Source of the DNA: a virus
Direction: 5' to 3' (one strand)
Virus record (IMG/VR): IMGVR_UViG_3300045988_052707
Location: 15,837 to 79,836 of that record
DNA length: 64,000 nucleotides
In this document: one piece after another, positions 7,968-54,285 of the stretch
How the letters are laid out: the number at the start of each line of letters is the position of its first letter
Numbering within the stretch: position 1 is the first letter of the stretch
Notes under the pieces: model-generated
The model's input: only the letters and a program-made list of their open reading frames with translations
Told to the model about the DNA's origin: nothing
The model's database searches: none
Made by a program: the position numbers and the translations under genes

Positions 7968-8609
7968 TTACTTGCGACCTAGACCATTATAGAAATCAAG
8001 TATTGCATTCTCTTTACGAAGCCAAGTAGCCTGTTCTTTAGCCATATCAAGAATAGTACGACTAATAGATTCTTCTTCTACTTGCTCTTTAACTAACATA
8101 CCTTCATCCTTATCCTCTCCATTCAACCATTGGAATGTAGCCCAATCACTCTCTTTTTGAGCTTGGTCTACAATCTTATTAATACCACGAGTAGTCTCAA
8201 TCTCCCTATCTACTGTGGCAGCAAAGGGCATGACTCTATCAGTGATTTCAACATTAATGGCTGGAACAGGCGGATATTGGAACAGAGCATCGTTAGTGGT
8301 TAGATATTCAAATATCCAAGAATGATGCAAATATTCTTCCTTAGCACGACCTCTCCAGTAAATACCTAGCTTTGGTAAACCCTCTACTTCAAAGTAATTG
8401 GCAAAGGTCATATACAGAGCATGGTTGGCAAGTTCGGCTGACATCTGTTTTACCAACATCTCAACCATTACAGTTGATAGTGGGCAAACACGTCTAGACT
8501 TATCAATCACCTGCTCTGTATACTTCATAGTAGGTTCAGCGCCTACGGTTTGAACTCCTTCGCTTGTCTTCTCCTGTATTGGATTTCCGTCTTTGTCTAG
8601 CATTCTCAC
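7968..8609 (-). CDS. ferritin-like iron-storage protein
   Basis: Helix-by-helix similarity to bacterial ferritin FtnA (LxxQMxxELxxxxxY, WRGRAKEEYLHHSWIFEYL ~ RRHAQEEMTHMQRLFDYL, FQWLNGE ~ LQWYVSEQ); true start probably an internal Met. Confidence 0.55.
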   Translation of the reverse strand: MRMLDKDGNPIQEKTSEGVQTVGAEPTMKYTEQVIDKSRRVCPLSTVMVEMLVKQMSAELANHALYMTFANYFEVEGLPKLGIYWRGRAKEEYLHHSWIFEYLTTNDALFQYPPVPAINVEITDRVMPFAATVDREIETTRGINKIVDQAQKESDWATFQWLNGEDKDEGMLVKEQVEEESISRTILDMAKEQATWLRKENAILDFYNGLGRK

Positions 8610-11958: not shown

Positions 11959-12291
11959 TTATACGTTAATACTCCCAGTATGTCTGCCTTGTACATTACC
12001 ACCAACCTCAATACTGTTAGCTTCTATAGAACCTCCCACATTGCCTTTAACTTTAACACTATTACCATGTACAGTAAATGCGTCTCCGTCAATATCACAT
12101 GTGTTGCAGTTAAGCTCTTTTACATTACCAGTAAAACTGATGTGTACACTATCCTTATTAGTTTCAGATATTAACTTACCATTTACGTAAATTTTACGCT
12201 TGATTTGTGAGATAGTGATATTGTCCTCTTCAATGTCATAGGACTCATTATCAATAAATAACTTATTCATGATTCTTTTTATCCAGTTCAT
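11959..12291 (-). CDS. bactofilin-like beta-helical repeat protein
   Basis: Repeated G-N-V/G-G-S-I motifs (VHGNSVKVKGNVGGSIEANSIEVGGNVQG). Confidence 0.4.
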   Translation of the reverse strand: MNWIKRIMNKLFIDNESYDIEEDNITISQIKRKIYVNGKLISETNKDSVHISFTGNVKELNCNTCDIDGDAFTVHGNSVKVKGNVGGSIEANSIEVGGNVQGRHTGSINV

Positions 12292-12890
12292 CTTCCTTCG
12301 TAATACTTAATCAGTTTATCAAATGCTTCAATCCTAGCATTGTGACCCTTCTCGTCATCGGGAGTCCACCAAAATGCCTTACCATACCTGTCTTTAGGTG
12401 CACCTAAGAACTCTCTATTGAACTCTGGAAACATAGCAACTACATCACGTTCATCATAGATGTTGATTCCTCTTTCTGTGCCAGCCATAGCATGTTCAAT
12501 GCAGAAACACATTCCCCAGTATTCTGAATGGTCTTCAAACAGCTTCTTAGCTTTTAGTAAGATAGTGTGCTTATTGATTCTTTCTGTGTACCAATGGATG
12601 AGTTTATCGAAGGCTATAAGCCTGTGTTTCTTCTCATCTACGGGCCACCAAAAGACCAGCCTAGCTACTTCTTCTCGTTTGACATTACCTCCTAGAAACT
12701 CTGGGTTAAACTCCGGAATTAATGCCACTAATTCATTATAAGAGGGAGGTATTCCTTCTTTAAACACTCCGTTGAATGCTTGCTTCATATAGTGGCACAT
12801 ACCACCATTCTTATCACTACCTGGCTTTGTATCTTTATCGTACAAGTCTTTAGCAGTCTTTAATCTTTTAATAATTTCTAAGTTAGTCAT
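12288..12890 (-). CDS. protein with internal tandem duplication (two ~45-aa repeats)
   Basis: FNPEFLGGNVKREEVARLVFWWPVDEKKHRLIAFDKLIHWY vs FNREFLGAPKDRYGKAFWWTPDDEKGHNARIEAFDKLIKYY. Confidence 0.55.
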   Translation of the reverse strand: MTNLEIIKRLKTAKDLYDKDTKPGSDKNGGMCHYMKQAFNGVFKEGIPPSYNELVALIPEFNPEFLGGNVKREEVARLVFWWPVDEKKHRLIAFDKLIHWYTERINKHTILLKAKKLFEDHSEYWGMCFCIEHAMAGTERGINIYDERDVVAMFPEFNREFLGAPKDRYGKAFWWTPDDEKGHNARIEAFDKLIKYYEGR

Positions 12891-13129: not shown

Positions 13130-13396
13130 TCACTCTTCGCCATAGTACATCAAGTATAGCACCTGCTGACGCAAACCATATCTACGTGTAACCACGTTAG
13201 CTTCCGCTCTCCTGGAAAGCGCAGCATTGATACTCCTCTTGAGTTTATCGGCATCAAATAGCAAACCAGTTACTCCTACTAATCCATTAGGCTCATCAGC
13301 GCAGATGTAATCTACTGCTTCAAAGAGCTGGGCTTTAGTTTCAGAACTGTTCACCTTCTGCCATTTCTTTATTTCTTTCTCAAAGTCCATAATCAA
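13130..13396 (-). CDS. hypothetical protein
   Basis: 88-aa ORF. Confidence 0.45.
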   Translation of the reverse strand: MIMDFEKEIKKWQKVNSSETKAQLFEAVDYICADEPNGLVGVTGLLFDADKLKRSINAALSRRAEANVVTRRYGLRQQVLYLMYYGEE

Positions 13397-13767
13397 TTAA
13401 GTGCTTCAAGTTCTTTAGCTAATTCTTCCAGAGATTTGCCTTCGAGTTCAGCGTCTTGTTTCTTAGCCATAAGGTCAAGAATCTTCTGACGCTTAGCTTT
13501 CTTCTCACTTTCAAGTAGACGGTCTTCCTGTTCTTGCAACTTAACATCAATAATGTGTTTTGCAATATTGAATTTCAGTTCAAGTTCGGTAGTGTCCTTA
13601 GTCCGGGTTTTGATGAAGCTTTCAGTTTTAGACTCTTGCAATTTCTTGTTAAGAGCAATTGCAATATTGTCAAGTTGAATTAAGGGTAAATCCCACAAGT
13701 CTTCAACAGAAAGAACTCCACGTTGCGTGTTAAAACGCAATTTCATTCTAGATGCTTTCTCAAACAT
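13393..13767 (-). CDS. hypothetical coiled-coil protein
   Basis: 124-aa ORF, K/E-rich heptad-like C-terminus. Confidence 0.45.
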   Translation of the reverse strand: MFEKASRMKLRFNTQRGVLSVEDLWDLPLIQLDNIAIALNKKLQESKTESFIKTRTKDTTELELKFNIAKHIIDVKLQEQEDRLLESEKKAKRQKILDLMAKKQDAELEGKSLEELAKELEALN

Positions 13768-13769
13768 AA

Positions 13770-14708
13770 TTATAGCATTAAATTGTTAATACGTTTATAT
13801 TCTTCAAACACCTTGTCCTCTGATTCTTCTCCCCACATACTGTGAATGAGAACACCGTAAGCACAAGGCTGGTACACAATAGGGTCTACTGCCTTCTTAG
13901 TGATTGTAACCTCTGGATTGTTTAATTGACCAGGAGGGCAAGCTACAAATAGCTCATTTCTACCTATCTTAACAGCATCAAAGGAAACTATGTTAGGATA
14001 GCTAAAACCCTTTACATTAGCAGGAAGACCAGGATTCTTGTTAACTATACTGGACAGCCTGAGTGTGCCTTCTATATCAGGACCAACAACTATATGATTA
14101 TGTGATTCTATGTATTTCTTCAGATTGTTCAACATAGTTTCGCTGTCATTATATCCATAGTTGATACCTGTAACATAATAATATGCTCCATTAGTACACT
14201 CCAACCCCAAATCAGAGAACATTGGTCCTTCACCATTAAGCTTGCGCTTAACTTTTATGATTTCTCTGATGTTGCGGTCAGGAATTACTCCAGTGTATTG
14301 TTTTAGTAGACCTTTGACAAGTTTATACTTCTTACAAACATCATCAAATTGTTTAGAGCCAACCAGAAGAGTACTCTCTCCGAATACCTCTCTTGCACGC
14401 TTTACGAAATTAAATAGGTTCTTAGCGCGCATGGCATCCAGAGCTATCTGATTATATTCAGATATTTTAGCTTGCAATAACCTAGCATTCTTCGAGTTCT
14501 CTAGTCCAGCGTTAACCAGTGTGTTGTATTCTCTTACTAACGTATCTCTGCCAGGGATATCAACTGGTGTCTTAGAAACAGAACGTAGATATTCCTCCAT
14601 ACATAAAGCAAGAGCCATAGCTATGTTGGACTGAACAGTCACCACTGGCATGTCAACCACTTCTGGAGTTATAACTTCAGAATCATTGCGTTTTAGAAAT
14701 CTAAACAT
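13770..14708 (-). CDS. member A of a three-gene paralog family (C-terminal I-x-S-x-W-G-E-E motif)
   Basis: C-terminus DPIVYQPCAYGVLIHSMWGEESEDKVFEEY aligns with ORFs 16725..17591 and 22326..23177. Confidence 0.6.
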   Translation of the reverse strand: MFRFLKRNDSEVITPEVVDMPVVTVQSNIAMALALCMEEYLRSVSKTPVDIPGRDTLVREYNTLVNAGLENSKNARLLQAKISEYNQIALDAMRAKNLFNFVKRAREVFGESTLLVGSKQFDDVCKKYKLVKGLLKQYTGVIPDRNIREIIKVKRKLNGEGPMFSDLGLECTNGAYYYVTGINYGYNDSETMLNNLKKYIESHNHIVVGPDIEGTLRLSSIVNKNPGLPANVKGFSYPNIVSFDAVKIGRNELFVACPPGQLNNPEVTITKKAVDPIVYQPCAYGVLIHSMWGEESEDKVFEEYKRINNLML

Positions 14709-16720
14709 CAGAAATTGACTTTTAAAGTTCTACTAAATGTTCCGTCCACTTTAACAATAACGGAATTACGCATAGTAGATGAGAATCCTAATCCACTCAA
14801 TTGATGTTCTTGGTAAGGAGTCTTCATCTTATCAGCTAGAACCTCAAATACCTTACGGTGAGGAGTTAGCTCACTGTTAAGATATTCGTTAAAGAATCCA
14901 CGAACAGGCTCCGGATTCTTGCAATCGTCCAACATAAAGAAGTAATGTTTATTGCCAATACCCTGCTCATCCCAATAATTGGGAGACATCATCATCACGT
15001 TCACCTTATGGAACTTGTTAGTATCAATATTCCATATGCCTATTGACGAATTGCTAGTACTGGGTATTAGCTCTCTTATTTGGATGCCTTTAGATTTACT
15101 GTAAGTAATCTCGGCAACCATGACATTCTCTTTATGTTTAACGGGTTTGTCATAGACAAATTGTCGAACTTCTCCGTTATATTCTATTTCCAATGTAAAG
15201 CCTGTGTCAACAGATTCTCTACAACAGAAGTTATTAACATATACGGTGTAATTGCCTTCAAGCATCTTACGTTCGTCAACCCATATGATGTTCTCAACGG
15301 GTTTACGAGTTTTGCCATATCCAGCATTTTCATCCACGTCTAGCTTACCGCCACTTTTACCAGTTCTGTTAGAATAGTAGATTTCGTTGTATGAAGGTTC
15401 AACGACATGCAAATCCAAGTCATCATAGTTAGACCATGCCAACGAACATCTTAAGAACCCTTCAGTCTGACCGCCAGCAGCTCTTACTTTCTCTTTAATA
15501 GAATCAGCTACTCCTCCATTATATGTCCAAGCAAAGTTGTTCGGCCATTTAAATAGATTCTTAGCATCCTTATTAACAGGAGCTGTAAGAGTTACTAAGT
15601 TATTAGACAGTCTACTTTCCATTAACACTTCTATGTTAGTGGCAGTAGGTACTACATTAGCAATGAAATCATCAATGCTAATTTCAGTTAACTTGTCAAA
15701 CTTCTTAGGATTGACTTTAGTGTCTGCGGCTAGTTCTTCGAATATATTTCCAGCCATTACCTTCTTGGCATCACGATTAGCGAATATAACATTGTTAACT
15801 GTTATATCCTCTAAGGCAGCATGTCTACGAGGTAGAGAATCCATAAGACCTAGTTCCTGCACTTTCTTCTGTGCTTCCTCAATCATTCTTTTAGTAACAA
15901 TTGACTTAGGTCTTTGATAGTTCTCTGGAGCCATGATACGTTCGTATGCAGTCACACAATCGTCCAATTCAAGTCCTGATGATATATTTACCAACAATGT
16001 ACCAATTGCCGTATTACGAATGCGTGCACATCCTACACGATTGAAGTTTGCCCAACACCAGTTGTCTTTCTCTTCATCAGGTAATGAATCATAGTGTCTT
16101 TTATGACCCAGGAATACACTTAAGTCATTTTTAAACTGTTCTCCTCTATATAAAGCATTCTGACCTATTAAGTCCAGAACTGTTTCTATAGAATCGACAG
16201 TTAATTCCTCCAGTGCACGTTTGAACACTTCCTTAGTTGTGCGTAAAGTCCCCATTACAGCAGATACGGATTCAGTTCCTGTATACACCAATTGATTTGG
16301 CATATGATAATAGAGATGATTCCAGGTAATTACTTTAGGACCTTGCAAACTGTCAATATAGACATTGTTTCTATCAATTCCTAGTTCATAATCACGAGTG
16401 ATAAAAACATCTACAACTGGTTTTGATTTCACTAATGCATCGAGATTTCTAGCTACAGTAGCATAAGGTTCATCCAACTGTAGGTTCTCCCACATGGTTA
16501 CTACTTTATTGTCTTTAATGGCGACAACTCTACCATAATGTCTGATATAATGTTTACAATTGTTGCAATTATGAGACTGTCTCTCTTCCTCCGGAAAGGA
16601 ATTAAGATAACAATCCCATAATGCATCCTTGTCTACATTAGTCAGAAAGAGCATGTCTGCACCAGCAGCTAGTCGATTAAACTGCGCATGGACTGCTCTT
16701 TTAAACTTGACAAATTCCAT
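14708..16720 (-). CDS. large hypothetical protein (670 aa) with N-terminal Cys/His cluster
   Basis: HNCNNCKHYIRHYG metal-binding-like cluster; start overlaps stop of downstream gene. Confidence 0.6.
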   Translation of the reverse strand: MEFVKFKRAVHAQFNRLAAGADMLFLTNVDKDALWDCYLNSFPEEERQSHNCNNCKHYIRHYGRVVAIKDNKVVTMWENLQLDEPYATVARNLDALVKSKPVVDVFITRDYELGIDRNNVYIDSLQGPKVITWNHLYYHMPNQLVYTGTESVSAVMGTLRTTKEVFKRALEELTVDSIETVLDLIGQNALYRGEQFKNDLSVFLGHKRHYDSLPDEEKDNWCWANFNRVGCARIRNTAIGTLLVNISSGLELDDCVTAYERIMAPENYQRPKSIVTKRMIEEAQKKVQELGLMDSLPRRHAALEDITVNNVIFANRDAKKVMAGNIFEELAADTKVNPKKFDKLTEISIDDFIANVVPTATNIEVLMESRLSNNLVTLTAPVNKDAKNLFKWPNNFAWTYNGGVADSIKEKVRAAGGQTEGFLRCSLAWSNYDDLDLHVVEPSYNEIYYSNRTGKSGGKLDVDENAGYGKTRKPVENIIWVDERKMLEGNYTVYVNNFCCRESVDTGFTLEIEYNGEVRQFVYDKPVKHKENVMVAEITYSKSKGIQIRELIPSTSNSSIGIWNIDTNKFHKVNVMMMSPNYWDEQGIGNKHYFFMLDDCKNPEPVRGFFNEYLNSELTPHRKVFEVLADKMKTPYQEHQLSGLGFSSTMRNSVIVKVDGTFSRTLKVNF

Positions 16721-16724
16721 AATC

Positions 16725-17591
16725 TTATAAAGGTTTAATATTGTCGAATATATTGTCTTCGGCTTCTACTCCCCATTTAGAGTGAATCATTACCCCTATT
16801 GGAGTTACTTGAAATACAAATGGGTCATTATTGATAGGAATAATCTTCCTTTCCGGAACTGTAAACTGCATCGTTTCATTCATTTCTTCAATAGGAGCGG
16901 CAATGAATAAGTCAGCACTGCTACATTCTTTTGAATCAGCAATGTTCACGTCATGTGCCTTGGCTTTATTAAGGATATGAAAGAATGGATATGCATTCAT
17001 TCTAGCCTTATTTCTACTCAAATACATAAGTCCAATATGGGAAGGTTCCTGCCTAATGAAGTACCTTCCAACCGGATAGGACATGCTATCAATAGGCATA
17101 GGGTGAGTAGCAACTTGCATACCAGTAACATACCGTAAAGGTGAACCGTTTCCGCTATAGTTAACATACTCATTTGCTTCAAGTGCTTGAGCAGTGGCCA
17201 TTACCTTAGAGATTTCATCAATGTTCTCGTCAGGTACAGAACCTTTATAAGCTGATAGTCTTCCAACAACTAATCCATACTTAACATTCAGATTAATGAA
17301 ATCCTCCTCCTTAAGTATCAATGAGCCAGGGAAATGTCTTTGCAAAAAGCTATAACATTTTAAGACTTTAAGGTCCTCTTCCGAAGTGATAGCATCACCT
17401 ACTTCTTTAGAATTAGTAAATCCTAAAGCTTTCAGTTTGACAGCCTTATCAACTAGTTGATGATTCGGATTCAGACCCTTAATAGTCTTCATGTACTCTA
17501 CAGCCATTAGAGTATAAGCTAATTGCACTTCTTGGGCTGTGAATCTCTTTGTGCCTACAGACGTATCTGTAGAAGGACTAAAATTGTTCAT
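16725..17591 (-). CDS. member B of the three-gene paralog family
   Basis: C-terminus DPFVFQVTPIGVMIHSKWGVEAEDNIFDNI; shared mid-region motifs (LKALGF / YKGSVPDENIDEI). Confidence 0.6.
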   Translation of the reverse strand: MNNFSPSTDTSVGTKRFTAQEVQLAYTLMAVEYMKTIKGLNPNHQLVDKAVKLKALGFTNSKEVGDAITSEEDLKVLKCYSFLQRHFPGSLILKEEDFINLNVKYGLVVGRLSAYKGSVPDENIDEISKVMATAQALEANEYVNYSGNGSPLRYVTGMQVATHPMPIDSMSYPVGRYFIRQEPSHIGLMYLSRNKARMNAYPFFHILNKAKAHDVNIADSKECSSADLFIAAPIEEMNETMQFTVPERKIIPINNDPFVFQVTPIGVMIHSKWGVEAEDNIFDNIKPL

Positions 17592-17711
17592 AATTACTTT
17601 TGTTTAACTGAACCTGGTCTGGTAGTAGCTCTCTTAAATGAATCAGATTGCTTATCCCACCAAGCCTGTCGGTCTTTAAGACGTTGTACTTTCTTCTTGT
17701 ATTTCATAGGT

Positions 17712-18185
17712 TTATCCTATTTCGTTACTAGCATTATAAGCAAGCTTGTCGGCTTCCTTATTATGTTCATCACTTGCGTGACCTTTACACCACTCAACAG
17801 ACACTACTTTATGCCTGTTCACAGCCTTATCAAGACGTTCCCACAAATCAGTATTGGCTTTCCTCTTCCACCCTTTAGTAAGAGTTCCTACAATATACAT
17901 AGAATCTGTTACTATTGTAATTTCAGAAGGTTCCTTTATGGATTCCAGGGCAACTATGACAGCCATTTGCTCCATTCGCTGATTGGTGCTGTTCTTATAC
18001 ATCTTACTGTATTGGAATATCTTCTTGTCCTCCTCTAAAATGACAAAGCCTATTCCCCCTTGATTTCTCGCAGGAGAATAGGCACCATCACAGTATATTC
18101 TGTACTTATGCGTCGGCATTAGGATTCTCAACAAAATCCTCATCATCCTCATCTTCTTCGGTTTCGGATATGACATCCTCATCAA
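17712..18185 (-). CDS. rnhA: ribonuclease H (RNase HI family); likely starts at internal Met
   Basis: IYCDGAYSP..NQGGIGFVI, MEQMAVIVALE, TDSMYIV, WCKGHASDEHNKEADKLA match RNase H catalytic motifs. Confidence 0.7.
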   Translation of the reverse strand: MMRMSYPKPKKMRMMRILLRILMPTHKYRIYCDGAYSPARNQGGIGFVILEEDKKIFQYSKMYKNSTNQRMEQMAVIVALESIKEPSEITIVTDSMYIVGTLTKGWKRKANTDLWERLDKAVNRHKVVSVEWCKGHASDEHNKEADKLAYNASNEIG

Positions 18186-18636
18186 TAAGATGCTTAACCC
18201 ACATACCTAAGATAAAGATGACATAGAATTTGTCTTCCTCCTGTTTGTAGTTAACCTTGTCAGAGACTTCATTAACTACATCTAACATTGTGAACTCCTC
18301 TTTAGCCATAGCATCATCAGCTATAGCAGACATTTCTTCTACATAAGGTCTAGCCTTCTGCATTGCTTCGTCAAAACTCTTTACTAAGGCTATGCCTTCA
18401 TCACCTCTAATTTGCATAGCAACAGATAGAGGTTGTTGCAATTCATCTCTAAAGAAGCCCAAATAGAAAGCTTTCTCTACATCTCCGTTTACGAAGTCAT
18501 TGAAAGATTTAGCTTTCATTACTTCCTCCACTTTGAAATCAATTTCTGATACGTCTCTGATTTTGTCCATAATGTTATGATAGCAGCCCACCAATCTTCT
18601 CGGCCATGGCTGTTGCTTTGTTAGAAACTGCTTCAA
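18106..18636 (-). CDS. hypothetical acidic protein
   Basis: 176-aa ORF, acidic C-terminal tail. Confidence 0.5.
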   Translation of the reverse strand: MKQFLTKQQPWPRRLVGCYHNIMDKIRDVSEIDFKVEEVMKAKSFNDFVNGDVEKAFYLGFFRDELQQPLSVAMQIRGDEGIALVKSFDEAMQKARPYVEEMSAIADDAMAKEEFTMLDVVNEVSDKVNYKQEEDKFYVIFILGMWVKHLIDEDVISETEEDEDDEDFVENPNADA

Positions 18637-18826
18637 GGTTTGCAGCTTCAGTTTGTAATTCGATAATCTCTTGTTCTCTAACCTCTTTCTCTGCTTGAGC
18701 TCTAGATGCTACCTCTTTAAGATTGGTAACAGCTTTCTCAAATACATCAATAATCTTAGCTGATTCCTCGGCTAGTGAGGTACTTGTTACTTTAGCCGGT
18801 TCGGCTGATTGTTTCTTTCCAAACAT
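18575..18826 (-). CDS. small coiled-coil protein
   Basis: 83-aa ORF. Confidence 0.4.
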   Translation of the reverse strand: MFGKKQSAEPAKVTSTSLAEESAKIIDVFEKAVTNLKEVASRAQAEKEVREQEIIELQTEAANLEAVSNKATAMAEKIGGLLS

Positions 18827-18857
18827 CTTATAGGATTAGAATTACAGGGTTCAGGGT

Positions 18858-18941
18858 GAGCGGCTGTCGGGAATCGAACCCAATCTATCACTTGTGCGCA
18901 TACTAAAATTAGTGATGTGCCCTCCTTTACACTACAACCGC
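18858..18941 (-). tRNA. atypical tRNA-like gene (about 18 nt enclosed by the anticodon-stem-like TCACT/AGTGA helix); anticodon undetermined
   Basis: Good acceptor (GCGGTTG/CAGCCGC), D-arm (GTGT/GCAC) and T-arm (TTGGG-TTCGATT-CCCGA), but the anticodon-stem-like helix TCACT/AGTGA encloses 18 nt instead of 7. Confidence 0.4.
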
Positions 18942-19208
18942 ATGGAGCAGTGGTTAGAATACTAATAGTCAAACACTAATAGTCATTCCTAAAGAGGTGT
19001 TCTGCAACCACCCCACAGTCAGCGCTAAACTGCACGTCTTATTACATACGCTCAACTCTGCTTTAGTTGTCATCGCTGGACTTTATTTAACCCAGATTCC
19101 AGCCTGGTCTATACTCGTTTCCTTTTAAGCTTACCACACTTGGAACATACTAGTAAGTATCTGTTACAATCAGTATAGCTAGTTTTTGCTATTATAGTCC
19201 ATTCATGC

Positions 19209-20402
19209 CTACATGCTAGTTTCTCTAGCCATTTCTTGAATAGTTCTTTCATAATCAATTCGTTTTACTAATGGATATAATTGCCCATAGCCGTGATTAA
19301 CTGTTATACACCTAGATGTTATAGACAGACGATAGTGAGCATTGTTAATTTCGTTAGTAAGATACTCCATAGTTACAGGAGTTACTCCGTCACTAAATGT
19401 AACAGTTATGCCCGCTTCTATATCTCCTACACTCTTAGTAAGAGCATCTAAGCTACTTTGAATTTCTGCATATCTAGGATTAGGAATCTGCTCCGTCTCT
19501 AAATGCATAAAATGCTTAGATGTTTCACCTATATAACCTCCTTTGCTACATGGAATCGGAAGATAAACCCAGTTGTTATCAAACTTAACAGCTTGTTCAT
19601 AAGCATGAGTTCCAGGTCTAAAGAGTTGCTGGTACGTATCGACTTTAACTACTTCTCTAGTCCCAGGAAGTCTGCCTTGCTTGCCGTCTAACCACCACCT
19701 TATATAGTCACGAGCATCACGCACATGATATACTGGCAACTCAACTGGAGTACCATTAACCATACACCAATAATGACCTAGCAACCTCGGTCTATAAAAG
19801 TCAGAGTCTGTTCCATTGGAGTCAGGATTAGAATTGGCAAATCCATAACAGTAATCATAATAGTCTGCTGCTTTATGAGGTTTAGCAATCTTACCAAACT
19901 TGGGCAAAGCATGATTCCTGTTCTCCTTCCATTGCTTAGTACTAATGTTGTATCGACGACCTCTAGGAGTCTGCTCAACAGATTGTACTAATCCATTATC
20001 ATCAACTCTAAAGAACGCCTGTCTCCACCTATAATCAGTGAAGTAGTCGTCTAGGTATTCAGTTTTGTCAGTATTCTTAATTGGCTTAATCCACTCATTC
20101 CAGGCTTTGGCTAGCTCTTTATAAGGCTTACCTACATACTTGGCTATGAATTTCACAATCCTAGATTCTTTAACGTATCCATAGCCGTGGTCCCAAGCTA
20201 TATAACAACTTTTGTCTAATACCTTTCTACCATATCCTCTCTGCGCTGCCACTTCTTTAGATACTCTCAAATTGAAATCAGCATCAAAATCAGCTAGCGT
20301 CACTTTAGTAAGGTGTCTAGGATAGTAGCTTGGATTACGAGTATGCTTGCTTTTACGTTTATACTCTTTCCTATGACCAAGTTTAAGTCTTCGTTCACTC
20401 AT
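19209..20402 (-). CDS. hypothetical protein (397 aa)
   Basis: Long ORF; ends with TAG followed two codons later by TGA. Confidence 0.55.
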   Translation of the reverse strand: MSERRLKLGHRKEYKRKSKHTRNPSYYPRHLTKVTLADFDADFNLRVSKEVAAQRGYGRKVLDKSCYIAWDHGYGYVKESRIVKFIAKYVGKPYKELAKAWNEWIKPIKNTDKTEYLDDYFTDYRWRQAFFRVDDNGLVQSVEQTPRGRRYNISTKQWKENRNHALPKFGKIAKPHKAADYYDYCYGFANSNPDSNGTDSDFYRPRLLGHYWCMVNGTPVELPVYHVRDARDYIRWWLDGKQGRLPGTREVVKVDTYQQLFRPGTHAYEQAVKFDNNWVYLPIPCSKGGYIGETSKHFMHLETEQIPNPRYAEIQSSLDALTKSVGDIEAGITVTFSDGVTPVTMEYLTNEINNAHYRLSITSRCITVNHGYGQLYPLVKRIDYERTIQEMARETSM

Positions 20403-20561
20403 GTTATAGTATTTTAGTTACTTTACCAAATACGGATTTGGTCCACCCATTAATCTTACCATGATTGTTGCCTATAAGAACTCCTCTGTCTCCCTTAGCT
20501 TTGACTAAGTGAGTATCTACCTTTAACTTTGCAGAATACTATATCACCTACCTCTACATCG

Positions 20562-21053
20562 CTAAGATTTATAGGACTCAAGACATGCTCTTGGCCAGAT
20601 TTGATTAGAGGAGTCATAGAGTTTCCCTTCTCTGAGGTTCTGAAGGATTTTCCTTCGGTCAGTAGTTTCTCCTTGTAATGCATCGGCTTTAGACATTAGA
20701 TATACAAAGTTTAATCTCTCTTCCATGGTAGAACCATTACTTATTCTTTCAAACAAGGTTAGTTCTTGCCCATTTTTGTAGTTATAGTAAGATATCAACT
20801 CATTATATCTGGCAGTTTTACTATTCAACGAAGCTATAGTCATTGGATATCTTCTTAGCACTACTCCCCTATATAAATCAACAAGTTCACCCAATGAGTT
20901 GGCAATCTTTAATAACCTAACTACATTGGGTGAACCGTGTTTCTTGTACCTAATAGCATAATTCTCCAGAGCAGCATCCCAATCATGGAACACGTGTTGA
21001 GCTTGAGTTAAATCAATCTCAACTATTTTACGCAGGAACTCTTCTATAGTCAT
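20562..21053 (-). CDS. hypothetical protein
   Basis: 163-aa ORF. Confidence 0.5.
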   Translation of the reverse strand: MTIEEFLRKIVEIDLTQAQHVFHDWDAALENYAIRYKKHGSPNVVRLLKIANSLGELVDLYRGVVLRRYPMTIASLNSKTARYNELISYYNYKNGQELTLFERISNGSTMEERLNFVYLMSKADALQGETTDRRKILQNLREGKLYDSSNQIWPRACLESYKS

Positions 21054-21256
21054 ATTAATTAGATATTGTAGGTGATGTTAACTTGTCAATTAGATTCTTC
21101 ATTGCTTCTTCACCAGCAGCAAAACCTTCAGAATATCCAATATTATATGCCTTCTCTATAGATACAGCAACAGCTTCCATGACGCTATTGCCCTCATACT
21201 GTTTCTTTAATTCTTCTAATAGTTCTTTCATAAATCCTCCTTCCTTTAATTATTAG

Positions 21257-21342
21257 TAGCTTGAGTGGGATTCGAACCCACACGTCCATTTCTGGACACC
21301 AGAGCTTAAATCTGGGGCGTCTACCAATTTCGCCATCAAGCC
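21257..21342 (-). tRNA. tRNA-Leu (anticodon TAA), type II with long variable arm
   Basis: Acceptor GGCTTGA/TCAAGCT, anticodon arm CCAGA-TTTAAGC-TCTGG, variable arm TGTCCAGAAATGGACGT, T-arm GTGGG-TTCGAAT-CCCAC. Confidence 0.6.
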
Positions 21343-21357
21343 ATACCCTTATACTGA

Positions 21358-21531
21358 CATCATGACCTTGATTGTAACTACAATTATCATTCCTATAGTA
21401 CTTATAGCAGCTATACTTAAGAATATCTTAACCCATTTAAAGTCACAATCCCATATAGTTAGTAACATAGCTATTAATGCAGCCACAAATGCAATGACTA
21501 CAGTAATCATTAATGCTGTTTCCATATCAAT
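21358..21531 (-). CDS. small membrane protein (not in ORF track)
   Basis: METALMITVVIAFVAALIAMLLTIW... two TM-like segments. Confidence 0.35.
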
Positions 21532-21997
21532 CTCTTACTAAGTCTATCCAATTAATTAGGATATGATACAACCACCTCATAATACGTAATCGCAATAAGT
21601 GTCAACAAAATCCTTAGCTTCTTTTAAACCACATTTAGCAGATTCTTTTACATGCTTAACTGCTTGCAGTTTGGAACCAGTCTGTACAAACTGTTTCATC
21701 TTAAAGAAGTCTTCACATGACAAATCAATTGTATTATTCCAACGCTTCCTGTATGCAAGCATTGCATCACTATACTCTTGAGGATGTTCTGTCCAGGTAA
21801 TTTGTTAGTCTAATATAACTGTACAAGTTCCATCAAGTATATCATATTCTCTAGATTCTACGGTGAATTTACCAGCTTCTAACACTACTATATCAGTAGG
21901 AAATGGAATCATCTCTGATGAGATTGATACTTCCTCTATTGTCTTATCATCTTTTACAAATTTTACAAACATAATCTTTAAGTATTAATTAATAACG

Positions 21998-22071
21998 TAG
22001 CGAGAAGGTGACTCGAACACCCAACCTTGCGATTATGAGTCGCACGCTCTAGCCAGTTGAGCTATCTCGCC
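21998..22071 (-). tRNA. tRNA-Met (anticodon CAT), copy 1 of 3 CAT tRNAs
   Basis: Acceptor GGCGAGA/TCTCGCT, D-arm GCTC-AACTGGCTA-GAGC, anticodon arm TGCGA-CTCATAA-TCGCA, T-loop TTCGAGT. Confidence 0.6.
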
Positions 22072-22325
22072 ATTAATAAGAACATAAAGCTCATCGTGTC
22101 TACATCGTTACCAATGCAACCTTAATACCTCCCGTTTGCTTCACTGCCGGCTAGTCTGGCTTTGTCTCCTTATGTTCTTATATATGAATAATCCGCCTGG
22201 CAGGGCTGCGAGCTGCCTTACCAATTATTGACGTCAGCTAATCTATGGAATAGCACGTCTGCTAAACTGAAATAGCCCTATAGTCATTTCTACACCTGCT
22301 CACATTTAAGTGGTGGATTACATGT

Positions 22326-23177
22326 TTATCGGTATTTATCGAACATGCTGTCTGATGCTTCTTCTCCCCACATAGACACGATAACAATACCTACTTTGGT
22401 AGCCCTAAATACTATTGGGTCTTCTAACCTTCTTTTACGGTCTTCTTCAGCTTTAGAGAAGATTTCTATGCGAATATTATTCTCCATAGTATCATAAGGC
22501 GCTGCAATTAGCCAAGTGTTATGGTCTAAATATGAGGTGCCAAGATGTAGGTAATCTTCCTCCTTATAACTTCCACCTATAGACCTCATGTACTGATAAC
22601 CACGGTCAATACCTTTGAATACAAATGGGAATCTAGAGAAATACTCAACAAGCCGTTTGGTCATGTCCTTAGACATTCTTGAATCTATTCTCGCAGCTTC
22701 AACCCAACTGACGTAGTTAAGATTTAAAGAGTTCAAAGCGTTAGAAGCCTTTGCTATTTGTGACACATTCTCACTTGGAATGAATCCGCTGAAGGTCGAT
22801 ATTGGACCACAATACAAATTGTACTTCTTCAGAATTGCAAAGAAATCCTCGTAAGTTACAACCAGTGCATCAGGATACGATTCTTTAATCCAGGATGTTA
22901 TTTCGTTAACCTTCTTCAGGTCTAATTTCTCTGGACCTAAAGCTGACTTATACTTCTTAGACTCGAGAATAGTCCTAAGGGTATCTGCATTCTTAGTTCC
23001 ACCCAGACCTGCTGCTTCCAACTTATCAAGCTCCTCTTTGATTTGCTCGGAATTGTCAAAGTCTTGATTGCCTTCTACGTACTTCTTATAGTACTCCATA
23101 GATGCTGTTACTAAGGCTAAACGTAACGCATCTGCACTCAATTTCTCCATACTATGATAAATGTTCTTTAATATCAA
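22326..23177 (-). CDS. member C of the three-gene paralog family
   Basis: C-terminus EDPIVFRATKVGIVIVSMWGEEASDSMFDKYR; LEAAGLGGTKNADTL and FSGFIPSENVSQI align to paralogs A/B. Confidence 0.6.
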   Translation of the reverse strand: MILKNIYHSMEKLSADALRLALVTASMEYYKKYVEGNQDFDNSEQIKEELDKLEAAGLGGTKNADTLRTILESKKYKSALGPEKLDLKKVNEITSWIKESYPDALVVTYEDFFAILKKYNLYCGPISTFSGFIPSENVSQIAKASNALNSLNLNYVSWVEAARIDSRMSKDMTKRLVEYFSRFPFVFKGIDRGYQYMRSIGGSYKEEDYLHLGTSYLDHNTWLIAAPYDTMENNIRIEIFSKAEEDRKRRLEDPIVFRATKVGIVIVSMWGEEASDSMFDKYR

Positions 23178-23610
23178 TCATGTATTTTATACCTTCAATT
23201 ATCACACATGCTAGCCCGCCAACGAGCATAATGAAGTATAATGCAACAATTAGTGGTTCCCAACCAGTCCCATAATCACTTCTATTAAGATTAAAGCTAA
23301 GCCTATTAGGCTTGTTATTAATAAGAGCTCTATCATAGGTTGGTTTGTCTACACGTAGTTTAAACTGATTGTCTCTACCGTCAGCTATTAGTGTAAGCTC
23401 ATATACAGTATGCGTCTGTTGATTAACTGTTTCGGTATAACAGTCCTTAGCAACTACTGTAGTCCACACAGGTTTGTCAATACAGGTTTCTTTAACTAGG
23501 TTAGATTTACATCCTCCTAGTCCTACTAAGCACACCACCAGCCATATTACTATCAAAGTTGCATGTCTGAAAGTGTTAGTTGACGGTCTCATATCAACAA
23601 TTGTTGGCAT
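23152..23610 (-). CDS. putative lipoprotein with C-terminal TM segment
   Basis: Lipobox-like LVGLGGC after hydrophobic leader; C-terminal hydrophobic helix. Confidence 0.45.
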   Translation of the reverse strand: MPTIVDMRPSTNTFRHATLIVIWLVVCLVGLGGCKSNLVKETCIDKPVWTTVVAKDCYTETVNQQTHTVYELTLIADGRDNQFKLRVDKPTYDRALINNKPNRLSFNLNRSDYGTGWEPLIVALYFIMLVGGLACVIIEGIKYMIDIKEHLS

Positions 23611-24094: not shown

Positions 24095-24141
24095 TTAGTT
24101 GTTAATAAAAGGAGAGCGAGATTACTCCCGCCCTCCAAGGT

Positions 24142-25599
24142 TTATTTGTTGTCCTTCTTCTCCGTAGAATAGTCCTTACGGTCGAGTTCCCACTGATACT
24201 CACACATCTGAGTGATTGCTTCAAGCTTCTCTGTACCCAGAACGAGTTTGAGAGCATTTACCAATCTTTCAGCCGGAGTTTCCACAACAGCTTTCTTGGA
24301 TGCGAGTCCAAGTTGACGTTGATAAGATTCAACGCTAGCTTTGATATGGAACGATGTTACATGGGTTTCTTCTGTAAAGATGAGTTTGGATTTGGTTGAT
24401 TCAACGATTTCAGCCATAAATGCCGGAGCAATTTCAGCTTCTTGAATGTAGTTACATACTTCACTCAAATCATCGTCGATTGTATATCCTTCTTCAGCGG
24501 TGAAGGTAGAACGGATGAATTTCTCCGCAGTTTCAGCGTCCAGGCAGTCCATAGTAATCACAGAACCAATTCTCTTACCTCTCAAGAAGGTAGGTTCAAT
24601 CAATTCAATGTGATTAGTAGTGAACAAGGTGATTACGTTCATATCTTTGGTATCACCACCGTCCAGAGTATTCAGGATGTCTTGCATTGCAGCATCTCTG
24701 TTACCTCTAGTTACTTGGTCAATATCTTCAACAAATACGACAACACCATGACCCGAACGGTCAACAACTTTACACATGCGCAGAGTTTCTGCAAGAAGAG
24801 AAGGATTCTTCAAATACACGAATGACCAGCCGTTCGTTACAGCATCTTTAGCCAGCTTAAATGCCAGCAAGGTCTTACCTGTACCATATTTACCTTCCAG
24901 CAAACAACCGTACTTCAATGGAATACCTTTAGCCAGACATTTCTCTGGATACAAGATTCTTGAACGTAGCGGTTGCAATTCAAATTCAGTCTTCTTAGAA
25001 AGAACCATGAATTGTTTCTCAATGCCGGCAAGCGTCATGATAGTAGGTTCAGACAGATTGCTGATTTCCAGTGCTTGATTCTTGTAGATAGATTCTGATG
25101 CCAACAGCTCTTTAGTTCTGTCAACAATATCATCAATCAATGACTGATATTTGAACTGGCATTGTCCTTTAATAAGGAGTAAATGACGGTCATTGTCATA
25201 GTTGATGTTGATTTCAGAATCTTCTCCCAATTCTTCAAGGCTGATTTTACCAAACGGAACCTTGGTACGAGAACCGTCTGCCAGAACAACGTCTACGGTA
25301 TCAATATTGCTGTTTCCAGAAGGACTGTTATCCTCCTTACTAACGGCAGAACCGAAGATTTCATTGATTGCTCTGTTCAACTGATATACACCGTCCGGTT
25401 TCCAACAAAGCAGCGAGTATTTGAAACTTGCCATTTTCTTGGACTGTTTGATTTCACCTTCGATGAATCCCAGAGCATCAGCATACTTCACATTGCTTTG
25501 GAGCACTTCAATCATTCTCTGTTTCTGAGTTTCCTCGTACTTGTTAACTCTCTGCTTAATAGCAGCTGTAGTTCCTTGCGGAATAATGTTCTTTGCCAT
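24142..25599 (-). CDS. AAA+ family ATPase (classic AAA, CDC48/FtsH-like P-loop)
   Basis: Walker A GKYGTGKTLLAFKLAK, Walker B VVVFVEDID, followed by sensor region; 250-aa unique N-domain. Confidence 0.7.
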   Translation of the reverse strand: MAKNIIPQGTTAAIKQRVNKYEETQKQRMIEVLQSNVKYADALGFIEGEIKQSKKMASFKYSLLCWKPDGVYQLNRAINEIFGSAVSKEDNSPSGNSNIDTVDVVLADGSRTKVPFGKISLEELGEDSEININYDNDRHLLLIKGQCQFKYQSLIDDIVDRTKELLASESIYKNQALEISNLSEPTIMTLAGIEKQFMVLSKKTEFELQPLRSRILYPEKCLAKGIPLKYGCLLEGKYGTGKTLLAFKLAKDAVTNGWSFVYLKNPSLLAETLRMCKVVDRSGHGVVVFVEDIDQVTRGNRDAAMQDILNTLDGGDTKDMNVITLFTTNHIELIEPTFLRGKRIGSVITMDCLDAETAEKFIRSTFTAEEGYTIDDDLSEVCNYIQEAEIAPAFMAEIVESTKSKLIFTEETHVTSFHIKASVESYQRQLGLASKKAVVETPAERLVNALKLVLGTEKLEAITQMCEYQWELDRKDYSTEKKDNK

Positions 25600-26149: not shown

Positions 26150-27217
26150 CTAAACTAACTTATCGAATATCATGGGCTGTATCGACATCCATAGATTCGC
26201 TAGCATTTCTTGCTCTGCGTCAGATGCCTCATCCCAATGTGATACGTACAATTTCTCCGTTCGTTCATTCCTATAAGGAACTTTAAATGAACGGTTAATG
26301 CGTACACTGTGTGCGAATAGGTCTTTGTCGAAATCAATAGCCCTAAGCGTCTTCTGGAAATCGTTGAACTTATTATTAGGGTCATCGACATCCCTAACAG
26401 ACATTCCAGAAGGAAATGGGCCATTACCATGCCTTGTTATATAAGGACGAGTTACATAACAAGTTTGGATTTCTTTACGTATACCTGCTTTCCGCAACAG
26501 CTCGTAAGCGTTTTGTGAAGTTGTATTAGACGGAGTACAATAAGGCATTATGCCGAATCTTTGGTCAAGCAATATTCCCTGTGAACCTTCAAACACTAGG
26601 TTATCATAATTCAACAAGCAATCTTCATTAACCGTACCTGTATGTAAGAAATAAGCATGTGCTAACCTACACCAGTTGTCTAGGTCTATCGAAGGATATT
26701 TACTAGACATGTTGTAATAGTTATCCACTATGGCATTTAGTTTCTCACGCAGTATGTAAGGATTCATACAATCTACAACTGTTAAGCTGTATCCTGCCTT
26801 AACTCGGTCCAAACAAGCTTTAAACCCTGTACCTACAGTACCATGTCGTAAGTTCTCTTCGTTATTAACTTGGGAATAGACATCGAAGGGAATTACAACT
26901 TGGCAGTGAGGGTGATACTGAACAATGGGACGAACTCCCATTTTAGCTAAGTCTGCACCCTCTAACATAGAGGTAATTGGGTCTACAGTACAGTATTCGG
27001 ACCAATACGTCGGCACTCCAAGTAAGGTTCCGCTGCCAAAGTTACTAAAGGTGTGCATCATGTCTCCATGCTTTACAGTATGTCCTACTTGATGTCCACC
27101 ACTAAACCTGACTACTAACACAGACTCTCGCTTACCTATGTACTTGTTACATAAGTTGTGAACTGTCTGTCCCTTACCTTCGTCTCCAAAGAATGTTCCT
27201 AATACAATACTAATCAT
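26150..27217 (-). CDS. adenylosuccinate synthetase (PurA) family enzyme, short form; candidate PurZ-like (2-aminoadenine/Z-base pathway) enzyme
   Basis: N-terminal P-loop IVLGTFFGDEGKGQ (PurA GDEGKGK), VVRFSGGHQVGHT (PurA RYQGGHNAGHT), GTVGTGF, FEGSQGILLD...PSNTTS, TRHGNGPFP; only 355 aa and lacks the C-terminal guanine-specificity region of canonical PurA (about 430 aa). Confidence 0.6.
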   Translation of the reverse strand: MISIVLGTFFGDEGKGQTVHNLCNKYIGKRESVLVVRFSGGHQVGHTVKHGDMMHTFSNFGSGTLLGVPTYWSEYCTVDPITSMLEGADLAKMGVRPIVQYHPHCQVVIPFDVYSQVNNEENLRHGTVGTGFKACLDRVKAGYSLTVVDCMNPYILREKLNAIVDNYYNMSSKYPSIDLDNWCRLAHAYFLHTGTVNEDCLLNYDNLVFEGSQGILLDQRFGIMPYCTPSNTTSQNAYELLRKAGIRKEIQTCYVTRPYITRHGNGPFPSGMSVRDVDDPNNKFNDFQKTLRAIDFDKDLFAHSVRINRSFKVPYRNERTEKLYVSHWDEASDAEQEMLANLWMSIQPMIFDKLV

Positions 27218-38695: not shown

Positions 38696-38767
38696 TGCCC
38701 CATGTTGGACTCGAACCAACGCCATACAAGTTTAGAATTTGCTCTTCTACCACTGAAGTAATGGGGC
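38696..38767 (-). tRNA. suppressor-type tRNA, anticodon CTA (would decode amber UAG)
   Basis: Acceptor GCCCCAT/ATGGGGC, D-arm CTTC-AGTGGTA-GAAG, anticodon arm GCAAA-TTCTAAA-CTTGT (U33, A37; one A-C mismatch at loop-closing pair), T-arm GTTGG-TTCGAGT-CCAAC; 4 nt from the preceding CAT tRNA. Confidence 0.55.
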
Positions 38768-42779: not shown

Positions 42780-43160
42780 CTCTTTGTTTAAATTTATTGT
42801 TATGAGAGTCTTTCTTTATTCTAAACAATAAACAAGCGGCATTACGGCAATTGGACATGCGTTAATCCGCTCGCCACTTACAGACCGTAATGCACACTTG
42901 ACCAGGCAGGAAAGAGGTTTGCTTGGTGACCTATCTGCATGCTGATTATATAATGCAGACCGTGTAGATTCTCTCTTACACAATATCTATAGTAGATTTG
43001 CACTACTGTTTTCTGATGCTTAATCAGGCGAACTCTTACTGTTCGAATAGATACAGGTTTCAACTCTTTGATATAGCCTTTTAAGTCATAGACACACTCC
43101 GGAGTATGTCTACTGGTTCTTCAGACCAAGTTTTGCTACCACCATTCGTCAATAGTGGAT

Positions 43161-44650: not shown

Positions 44651-44694
44651 CCTTCATTTTAGTAATTCCAATTAAGCGTTAATAATAGTGGACC

Positions 44695-44725
44695 ATCGCG
44701 GACTCGAACCGCGGTCTTCACAACT
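44695..44725 (-). other. tRNA 3'-fragment (perfect T-arm CGCGG-TTCGAGT-CCGCG + acceptor 3' strand ATGGTCC-A) without detectable 5' half
   Basis: No complementary GGACCAT or D-arm within 400 nt upstream; lies at the 3' end of a ~900-nt ORF-poor, hairpin-rich region. Confidence 0.35.
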
Positions 44726-45836: not shown

Positions 45837-45848
45837 CTCTTGGCATTA

Positions 45849-51962: not shown

Positions 51963-52006
51963 CGAACTTAAATCGCAGAATTTAATAACAATTAAAATTT
52001 ATAACA

Positions 52007-52261: not shown

Positions 52262-52263
52262 TA

Positions 52264-54119: not shown

Positions 54120-54125
54120 TAATTA

Positions 54126-54284: not shown

Positions 54285-54285
54285 T

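What the first reader, a model, noticed from the sequence alone, without database searches (positions are those of the whole stretch)
13770..23177. Three divergent paralogs sharing a conserved C-terminal I-x-S-x-W-G-E-E motif
Three ORFs of ~285-310 aa share several collinear blocks: ORFs 13770..14708, 16725..17591 and 22326..23177. The blocks are L-x-AGL-x-x-KN near residue 60, YxGxIPxxNIxEI in the middle, and a C-terminal DP(I/F)V(Y/F)...G(V/I)xI(H/V)S(M/K)WG(E/V)E..D..F. Identity is otherwise low. Triplicated, rapidly diverging phage genes of unknown function are typical of host-interaction or anti-defence families. No known domain was recognised.
Basis: seen in the sequence. Interest (0 to 1): 0.55.

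Follow-up and report, generated by a model that had tools for sequence, protein, structure and literature searches.

The report
Undescribed three-copy gut-phage protein family
The three genes are real, anciently diverged copies of a large protein family found almost only in uncultured phages, with no known domain or detectable fold relative; they are dispensable accessory genes of a very common human-gut phage, and their function is still unknown.

Summary
Three minus-strand genes (par1 13770..14708, par2 16725..17591, par3 22326..23150) are full-length homologs (BLASTP E 5e-16 to 3e-19, about 25% identity), and a family HMM finds no fourth copy in the window. The family is large (2,202 clusters at 50% identity) and almost entirely metagenomic. 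It has no Pfam, PHROG, NCBIfam, PADLOC or PDB-sequence match. A confident AlphaFold model (pLDDT 85) has no neighbour in PDB or BFVD. The "rapidly diverging triplication" reading is not supported. The three copies lie in three deep clades and are under purifying selection (dN/dS 0.08-0.15), so they are old co-resident subfamilies. They lie in a tRNA-rich, deletion-prone accessory region of what is probably a Zeta-type crAss-like Bacteroidales phage. Natural variants delete or fuse them, so they are dispensable. Each is translationally coupled to a different upstream gene: a two-TM membrane protein, a 37-aa peptide, and DUF8224. Two rigid conserved blocks flank a variable 81-137-residue centre. 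My best guess, at low confidence, is a cytoplasmic adaptor or scaffold used in host takeover or counter-defence. Interest is moderate: a new, abundant orphan family with no mechanism yet.

The parts
13770..14708 (-). par1, 312 aa, family member (par1-type clade). Its start overlaps the stop of the DUF8224 gene (ATGA).
   Evidence: HMM E 1.7e-122; AF2 pLDDT 85; dN/dS 0.15, dS 0.19
16725..17591 (-). par2, 288 aa, family member (par2-type clade). The exact sequence is seen on at least 1000 public contigs.
   Evidence: E 4.9e-69; dN/dS 0.08
   Evidence: E 1.3e-85; dN/dS 0.13
23152..23610 (-). 152-aa protein with an N-terminal TM/lipobox-like segment and a C-terminal TM. Its stop is 1 nt from the par3 ATG. 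This pairing is conserved in L026, L044/L045 and the distant L054.
   Evidence: (E 3e-8 in L054)
17594..17707 (-). 37-aa basic peptide ORF whose stop is 2 nt from the par2 ATG. It is conserved upstream of family members in L027, L044 and L120.
14708..16720 (-). 670-aa DUF8224 / phrog_1735 protein between par2 and par1. Not a family member, but a recurrent neighbour.
   Evidence: (E 4e-262)
13393..13767 (-). 124-aa coiled-coil protein, the conserved partner of DUF8224 in many phages. It starts 2 nt after the par1 stop.
   Evidence: (E 2e-30 and 1e-26 in phages Marshall and Kioshi)
13798..13839 (.). DNA encoding the par1 C-terminal WGEE motif, the reference copy of the only 3-copy repeat (other copies at 16738-16779 and 22333-22374)
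13300..23600 (.). Deletion- and insertion-prone accessory region that contains all three paralogs
24142..25599 (-). Context: classical AAA ATPase (485 aa), followed by the only strong minus-strand terminator-like site (24111-24136). AAA genes recur next to family members in distant lineages.
31010..32971 (-). Context: SPFH/flotillin-like protein (653 aa). A homolog lies two genes downstream of the family member in the distant lineage L002.

Best explanation
SHOWN: par1, par2 and par3 are members of a large, previously unannotated protein family that is almost entirely restricted to phages. They represent three anciently separated subfamilies co-resident in one genome. They encode soluble proteins of about 275-310 aa with no signal peptide or TM segment. 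The predicted structure has an N-terminal helical part (including a 37-residue helix) followed by an alpha/beta domain. Two rigid conserved blocks, KYxL..G..YTGxIPxxN and FIAAP...DPIVF..G..I.S.WGEE.ED, flank a poorly conserved central segment of 81-137 residues. The genes are under purifying selection, yet natural strains often delete them. They lie in the tRNA-rich early/replication half of a very common human-gut phage, probably a Zeta-type crAss-like Bacteroidales phage. Each is translationally coupled to a different upstream gene. INFERRED (low confidence): they are cytoplasmic adaptor or scaffold proteins, not enzymes. In this reading the conserved blocks form the fold and a shared docking surface, and the variable centre and subfamily-specific partners (the two-TM envelope protein for par3, the 37-aa peptide for par2, DUF8224 and its coiled-coil partner for par1) set the target. 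Their job would be conditionally useful host takeover or counter-defence, which would explain both the purifying selection and the frequent loss.
For: Paralogy and exactly three copies. Family size and phage restriction: 2,202 clusters at E<=1e-3; IMG/VR loci; only four hits in GTDB genomes, all Bacteroidales-type MAG bins; one cultured phage among 50,697 records. No annotation anywhere. Confident model without structural neighbours. Ancient subfamilies: with lineage copy-number pattern. Purifying selection. Dispensability and plastic region: a 3,035-nt deletion fusing par2 to par1 at a TCTAAA microhomology on 22 contigs, many other in-frame deletions and truncations, and large deletions confined to 13.3-23.6 kb in same-species loci. 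Architecture. The invariant positions are mostly Gly, Pro and hydrophobic residues; only D275, E295 and Y128 are polar. Operon coupling. Conserved TM152-par3 pairing. Independent tandem duplication in a 353-kb phage contig: (L130).
Against: No result here demonstrates any function. There is no positive-selection signal of the kind often seen in arms-race proteins. No neighbour is universal across the family: TM-protein adjacency is not enriched family-wide (9/33 against 22% expected, p=0.30), and DUF8224 with its coiled-coil partner occurs in 543 cultured-phage records, with no family member beside it in the two I inspected. Conserved D275, E295, Y128, K127 and N146 could still form an active site. 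I could not inspect the model coordinates or search the AlphaFold database, so fold novelty is only shown against PDB and BFVD.
Confidence: 0.35

Rival explanations
1. Cytoplasmic component of a membrane-associated phage module (small envelope lipoprotein or TM protein, family member, AAA ATPase, flotillin) that remodels or guards the host envelope, for example in superinfection exclusion.
For: par3 is coupled to a two-TM protein, and this pairing persists in four dereplicated lineages including the distant L054. In one gut lineage a 75-83-aa protein with a lipobox (LLVSC) sits immediately upstream and an AAA ATPase downstream, followed by flotillin in L002. The window also encodes an AAA ATPase and a flotillin-like protein nearby.
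Against: Family-wide, TM neighbours are not enriched (9/33 against 22% expected, p=0.30). par1 and par2 have no such partner. The two kinds of upstream envelope protein are not detectably homologous. The AAA proteins of the two lineages are only remotely related (E 1e-4).
Confidence: 0.2
2. Enzyme or binding protein acting on tRNA or other RNA, for example protecting or repairing the translation apparatus, and encoded within the phage's tRNA arrays.
For: The window has about 29 tRNA genes, a tmRNA and a suppressor tRNA around the paralogs. tRNA or tmRNA genes lie directly beside the family gene or its small upstream partner in L001, L027, L029, L031, L033, L044, L026 and L065. A few polar residues (D275, E295, Y128, K127, N146) are conserved. 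There are weak hints to the GatB/YqeY helical domain.
Confidence: 0.12
3. Accessory or specificity subunit of the conserved DUF8224 plus coiled-coil protein module.
For: Family genes flank DUF8224 on both sides in the window with overlapping or 4-nt junctions. They sit upstream of it in L044/L120, downstream in L026, and two genes upstream in L002, L029, L030, L032 and L047.
Against: DUF8224 occurs in 543 cultured-phage records. In the two neighbourhoods I inspected (Marshall, Kioshi) it is paired with the coiled-coil protein and has no detectable family member beside it. Most diverse family loci lack DUF8224. par3 is never next to it.
Confidence: 0.1
4. Selfish mobile genes (homing-endonuclease-like) that spread between phage genomes.
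For: Presence/absence polymorphism and multiple copies. A Y-x9-YTG spacing superficially recalls GIY-YIG.
Against: No GIY-YIG or other nuclease Pfam hit appears in the top-25 recurrent families among 119 members at E<=1. The motif lies in a helix-strand context, not a beta-hairpin. Synteny is conserved and the subfamilies are deep. Selection is purifying.
Confidence: 0.03

Closest known systems
Uncharacterised accessory gene families in plastic regions of large phages (my own knowledge: for example the hyperplastic regions of T4-like phages and anti-defence gene clusters)
   Same: Located among early, replication and tRNA genes. Dispensable, with frequent natural deletions and insertions. Multi-copy and lineage-variable in copy number. 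No recognisable domain.
   Different: Here the copies are ancient, individually conserved subfamilies under purifying selection and of 275-310 aa, not small fast-evolving ORFs. No anti-defence activity has been shown.
DUF8224 (PF26675) / phrog_1735 plus its ~124-aa coiled-coil partner
   Same: Recurrent, translationally coupled neighbour of par1 and par2 in several gut-phage lineages.
   Different: Not homologous to the family. It is widespread in cultured phages, and the two inspected (Marshall, Kioshi) have no family member beside it. Its own function is unknown.
Thoeris anti-defence protein Tad1 (PDB 8kbb) and GatB/YqeY helical domains (PDB 1ng6, 8xje)
Zeta crAss-like phages (proposed Echekviridae; PMC12386605), as the probable genome of origin
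   Same: Contigs carrying these exact proteins are 175-188 kb. The window has about 29 tRNAs, a CTA suppressor tRNA, and GC of 33-40.5% in 2-kb windows, matching the Bacteroides-associated group in the paper's Table 1. The helicase's nearest annotated relatives are crAss-like phages.
   Different: The defining TerL and capsid markers are outside the window and were not tested. The paper does not mention paralogs, flotillin/SPFH or tmRNA (term search).

Membership tests
The new family itself (defined here by alignment A5 / its HMM) | Full-length collinear match to the family profile, including the KYxL..YTGxIPxxN and FIAAP...DPIVF...WGEE blocks | tested here: met
   HMM E 1.7e-122 (par1), 4.9e-69 (par2), 1.3e-85 (par3), covering nearly the whole profile; pairwise BLASTP E 5e-16 to 3e-19
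Any Pfam-A family | Score at or above a family's gathering threshold, or a weak hit that recurs across members | tested here: not met
   No hit for the three proteins except RIF2_lid at E 0.024, below its cutoff. Among 119 diverse members no family recurs in more than 4.
Any PHROG (families of cultured and reference phage proteins) | HMM match at E<=1e-3 | tested here: not met
   0 of 119 members match. The three window proteins have no significant hit.
GIY-YIG homing endonucleases | GIY...YIG beta-hairpin followed by conserved Arg, Glu and Asn; match to the Pfam GIY-YIG model | tested here: not met
   No GIY-YIG family among the top-25 recurrent Pfam hits at E<=1 across 119 members. The Y128/Y138 segment is predicted as helix end plus short strand.
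GatB/YqeY tRNA-binding helical domain | Match to PF02637 above cutoff, or a structural superposition with low rmsd | tested here: not met
Anti-defence proteins | Demonstrated inhibition of a host defence system, or homology to a known inhibitor | not testable with these tools
   No homology to anything known. Only dispensability and location are consistent. No anti-defence HMM library was available.
Anti-phage defence system components (PADLOC) | HMM match to a PADLOC model | tested here: not met
   No hit for the three paralogs, DUF8224, the 124-aa protein or the 152-aa protein. Only the AAA ATPase has weak IetA-like hits.
Zeta crAss-like phage genome (context, not the proteins) | TerL and capsid phylogeny within Crassvirales; genome of 155-190 kb with many tRNAs | tested here: inconclusive
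The helicase's closest annotated hits are crAss-like phages at 27-31% identity. TerL and MCP are not in the window.

The most novel reading that the evidence does not exclude
The family is a new protein fold that large phages, including some of the most prevalent human-gut phages, use as a modular adaptor. A conserved two-block core would dock to a common partner, and an exchangeable central module with subfamily-specific operon partners (envelope protein, 37-aa peptide, DUF8224 module) would direct it against different host defence or takeover targets. Keeping three ancient subfamilies in one genome would then broaden the range of hosts or defences the phage can handle.
Probability: 0.2. Interest if true: 0.65.

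Novelty: new member of a known kind. Interest (0 to 1): 0.4.

Why it matters
The exact par2 protein occurs on at least 1,000 public contigs, and the three paralogs belong to 90%-identity clusters of 1,559-2,008 member sequences, so they belong to a very prevalent human-gut phage. The family spans more than 2,000 sequence clusters in large phages from many environments, yet it is absent from Pfam and PHROGs and has no detectable relative among PDB structures. Only one of 50,697 phage records carries it, a cultured cyanophage. That makes it a clear gap in phage protein annotation and a candidate new Pfam family, possibly a new fold. Natural deletion variants exist, so its contribution to infection could be tested by comparing strains. 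If it proves to be a counter-defence or takeover adaptor of crAss-like Bacteroides phages, it would bear on how these dominant gut phages persist. On present evidence it is a well-delimited orphan family, not a new mechanism.

Tried and rejected
1. A fourth paralog in the window: none; the next best HMM E-value is 0.57.
2. Known domains: Pfam, PHROGs, NCBIfam and PADLOC gave nothing for the three proteins or for 119 diverse members, including a relaxed scan at E<=1 looking for recurrent weak hits.
3. Solved structures: a profile search of PDB sequences gave nothing.
5. Domain fusions: the long family members are larger central inserts or deletion chimeras, not informative fusions.
6. Marshall_85 (290 aa), near DUF8224 in a cultured phage, as a diverged family member: not detected.
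7. Family-wide association with membrane proteins: not significant.
8. GatB/YqeY and Tad1 resemblance: too weak.
9. GIY-YIG-like motif: rejected.
10. Positive or diversifying selection in par1, including its central segment: not seen.
11. Long DNA repeats that could drive homologous deletions: none. The junction examined is a 6-nt microhomology.
12. Literature: nothing for DUF8224, Lbo-JY46 or RAGATH-34 in the held library.
13. Two context look-ups (P0121, P0151) landed on contigs under 2 kb and gave no information.
Full report
OBSERVATION. They align collinearly from end to end. BLASTP gives E 5e-16 (par1-par2), 4e-17 (par1-par3) and 3e-19 (par2-par3), at 25-26% identity. A profile HMM built from the family scores them 1.7e-122, 4.9e-69 and 1.3e-85. 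The next best stop-to-stop ORF in all six frames of the window scores E 0.57, so there are exactly three copies in these 64 kb. The only three-copy DNA repeat between 13 and 24 kb is the 42-nt stretch that encodes the C-terminal WGEE motif.

There are two corrections. First, par3 almost certainly starts at the ATG at 23150 (MEKLS..., 274 aa), one base after the stop codon of the upstream gene, as its relatives do. Second, the motifs as quoted are approximate. Across 119 diverse members the nearly invariant positions are G68, F121, Y128, L130, G140, P143, I255, P258, D275, P276, G285, W292, G293 and E295.

HOW BIG AND HOW KNOWN IS THE FAMILY. A word-indexed search of 5.8 billion proteins returned 99 hits. 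All come from metagenome assemblies, and none has a functional name. An exhaustive HMMER search of 1.84 billion cluster representatives found 2,202 proteins at E<=1e-3 and 1,265 at E<=1e-10. The exact par2 sequence is on at least 1,000 contigs, and GenBank calls it 'MAG: hypothetical protein [Bacteriophage sp.]'.

No library recognises the family:
- The three window proteins have no significant Pfam or PHROG hit.
- None of the 119 diverse members matches a PHROG, and one has a single isolated Pfam hit at E<=1e-3 (HAT_PRP39_N).
- Even at E<=1 no Pfam family recurs in more than 4 of the 119 members.
- NCBIfam and PADLOC give nothing.
- A profile search of all PDB sequences gives only helix-level noise (best E 0.026).
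- Among 50,697 phage records, tblastn with par1, par2 and par3 finds nothing. More distant members find a single record, the cultured Leptolyngbya phage Lbo-JY46, where the gene is annotated as hypothetical.
- In one genome per GTDB species there are four hits. All are Bacteroidales, Prevotella or Bacteroides MAG bins, and one is a 201-kb contig, so these are most simply phage contigs binned with their host.

STRUCTURE. With 34 sequences AlphaFold2 gave pLDDT 72. With 119 sequences it gave pLDDT 85 and pTM 0.77, with the same topology. The model has an N-terminal helical part, including a 37-residue helix (73-109), followed by an alpha/beta domain (114-311) that ends in a beta-hairpin (DPIVYQ...GVLIHSM), the WGEE turn and a C-terminal helix.

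The block F121...N146 has an invariant length (24 residues between the two positions). The block D275...E295 has 19 +/- 0.3 residues. The segment between N146 and I255 ranges from 81 to 137 residues and has the lowest information content. Longer family members simply have larger central inserts and carry no informative fusions.

AGE AND SELECTION. In a neighbour-joining tree of 119 members, the three paralogs lie in three deep clades, each with many other representatives. Synteny agrees with this:
- The window's species has AAA - TM152 - par3 ... RNase H - 37-aa peptide - par2 - DUF8224 - par1 - cc124.
- A sister lineage (L044-46, L120) lacks par1.
- Another lineage (L026) lacks par2.
- A distant gut lineage (L002, L029-L038, L047) shows one par1-type copy within the fetched flanks.
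- A 353-kb environmental contig (L130) has its own tandem pair.

Within the species, dN/dS is 0.15 (par1), 0.08 (par2) and 0.13 (par3), similar to neighbouring genes. piN/piS is 0.10-0.16 in every part of par1, although variable sites are denser in the central segment (18 of 90 against 3 of 62 in the C-terminal core). par1 has unusually high dS (0.19 against 0.02-0.11), which suggests allele exchange and not fast protein evolution. So 'rapidly diverging triplication' is not what the data show. These are old, maintained subfamilies.

DISPENSABILITY. Many database entries are deletion products. They include in-frame internal deletions of par1, N-terminal truncations, par2-N/par1-C chimeras, DUF8224/par fusions, and par3 fused to the L12-like ORF.

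I checked one of these in detail. P0020 is carried on 22 contigs from independent samples. It results from a 3,035-nt deletion (window 17393 to 14357) at a TCTAAA microhomology, at non-equivalent positions of par2 and par1, and it removes the whole DUF8224 gene.

In 27 same-species loci, nearly all large deletions fall between 13.3 and 23.6 kb. They hit par1, par2, par3, DUF8224, cc124 and p397. The equally covered flank at 5.8-11.9 kb is almost untouched, apart from replacements near 11.3-12.15 kb in L005 and L010. Two of the four loci recovered through par3 alone lack par1 (L041, L042). The region is therefore a plastic accessory region, and the genes are non-essential in nature.

CONTEXT. 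The window carries about 29 tRNA genes, a CTA suppressor tRNA, a tmRNA and a RAGATH-34 RNA. It also carries helicases, RNase H, an adenylosuccinate-synthetase-like gene, an AAA ATPase and a flotillin-like protein.

The genome is probably a Zeta-type crAss-like Bacteroidales phage. Contig sizes (175-188 kb), tRNA number, GC content and a CTA suppressor without amber recoding match the Bacteroides group in Table 1 of PMC12386605. The DnaB-like helicase's nearest annotated relatives are crAss-like phages. The TerL and capsid markers were not available, so this remains probable and not tested.

All three paralogs are translationally coupled to their upstream gene: TAG-T-ATG for TM152-par3, TAA-TT-ATG for the 37-aa peptide and par2, and an ATGA overlap for DUF8224-par1. 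The only strong minus-strand terminator-like site in 12.8-25.8 kb follows the AAA gene.

TESTS OF FUNCTIONAL ASSOCIATIONS.
(a) Membrane partner. par3-type genes are always preceded by a 146-157-aa two-TM protein, including in the distant L054 (E 3e-8). One gut lineage has a 75-83-aa lipobox protein immediately upstream and an AAA ATPase downstream. Family-wide, however, after dereplication to 33 lineages, TM neighbours are not enriched (9/33 against 22% expected, p=0.30).
(b) DUF8224 and cc124. This pair is a recurrent neighbour in gut lineages. But DUF8224 is found in 543 cultured-phage records (Ackermannviridae, Herelleviridae, phiCbK-like, N4-like and others). In the two neighbourhoods I inspected (Marshall, Kioshi) it is paired with the cc124 homolog, and no family member lies beside it.
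(c) tRNA and tmRNA genes. These lie directly beside the family gene in several lineages, but about half of the diverse loci have none nearby.

None of these associations is universal. They look subfamily-specific.

INTERPRETATION. What is shown is a new, large family that is almost entirely phage-restricted. It has three ancient subfamilies in one genome. The proteins are soluble, with a conserved two-block core and a variable centre. The genes are under purifying selection but are often lost, they lie in a plastic tRNA-rich early region, and each is wired to a different upstream partner.

What I infer, at about 0.35 confidence, is a non-enzymatic adaptor or scaffold role in conditionally useful host takeover or counter-defence. 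Two things favour this: the invariant positions are mostly structural (Gly, Pro, hydrophobic), and the mix of purifying selection with presence/absence variation fits a niche-dependent benefit.

The rivals are a membrane-module component (0.2), an RNA- or tRNA-directed activity (0.12), a DUF8224 accessory subunit (0.1) and a selfish gene (0.03). The remaining probability is 'something else'.

VERDICT. This is a genuine annotation gap and a candidate new Pfam family, possibly a new fold, in a highly prevalent gut phage. Nothing here reveals a new mechanism, so interest is moderate (0.4).

Noticed in passing
window 38695-38767 (-), 44686-45189 (-), 43050-43158 (-), 45768-45838 (-): Suppressor tRNA with anticodon CTA (reads UAG), a phage-encoded tmRNA (Rfam RF00023, 66.6 bits), a RAGATH-34 sRNA (113.7 bits) and an odd tRNA with an irregular anticodon loop. 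About 29 tRNA genes are spread over 11.8-45.8 kb. tmRNA genes also sit just upstream of family members in L029, L031 and L033.
   Followed up: partly
window 14708-16720 (-) and 13393-13767 (-): The 670-aa DUF8224/phrog_1735 protein (N-terminal CxxC motif) is about 44% identical across 543 phage records from very different families. In the two cultured phages inspected (Marshall, Kioshi) and in the gut lineages it is followed by a ~124-aa coiled-coil protein. This is a conserved two-gene module of unknown function that some records mislabel as RNA polymerase.
   Followed up: partly
window 21577-21762 (-): A 61-aa ORF matches the ribosomal protein L7/L12 C-terminal domain (PF00542, E 6e-6, just above the cutoff). 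Natural deletion variants fuse it to the N-terminus of par3 (P0095, P0099).
   Followed up: partly
window 31010-32971 (-) and 24142-25599 (-): A phage-encoded flotillin/SPFH protein (653 aa, with an N-terminal TM) and a classical AAA ATPase (proteasomal/CDC48/FtsH-like). In a distant lineage (L002) an AAA gene and a flotillin gene are adjacent. The arrangement recalls (my own knowledge) SPFH-AAA pairs such as HflK/C-FtsH.
   Followed up: partly
window 12288-12890 (-): The 200-aa protein appears to be an internal duplication: two ~95-aa halves share (I/F)PEFN(P/R)EFLG...FWW...AFDKLI motifs. A half-size homolog (103 aa) directly follows the family member in L027.
   Followed up: no
window near 27194-27217, 21307, 18100 (relative to L039/L042, L012, L016): Strain-specific insertions of 758, 816 and 571 nt relative to the window, possibly mobile elements or homing endonuclease genes. 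An HNH endonuclease ORF lies at 34574-35206.
   Followed up: no
window 52000-56000: A short block of plus-strand genes in which GC skew and AT skew flip sign and GC drops to 0.33, inside an otherwise minus-strand window.
   Followed up: no
window 7968-8609 (-), 11959-12291 (-), 26150-27217 (-), 57861-60497 (-): Auxiliary-looking genes: a ferritin-like protein (PF00210), a weakly bactofilin-like 110-aa protein, an adenylosuccinate-synthetase-like protein (PF00709), and an 878-aa protein with a glucosaminidase domain. The last is 90% identical to the unannotated human-faecal contig MT835470.1.
   Followed up: no
L124 3109-4674 and L133 (Leptolyngbya phage Lbo-JY46): In two environmental or cyanophage lineages the family gene lies next to, or a few kb from, a nicotinamide/nicotinate phosphoribosyltransferase-like gene (by N-terminal sequence in L124; annotated PncB in Lbo-JY46). 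This may be coincidence.
   Followed up: no
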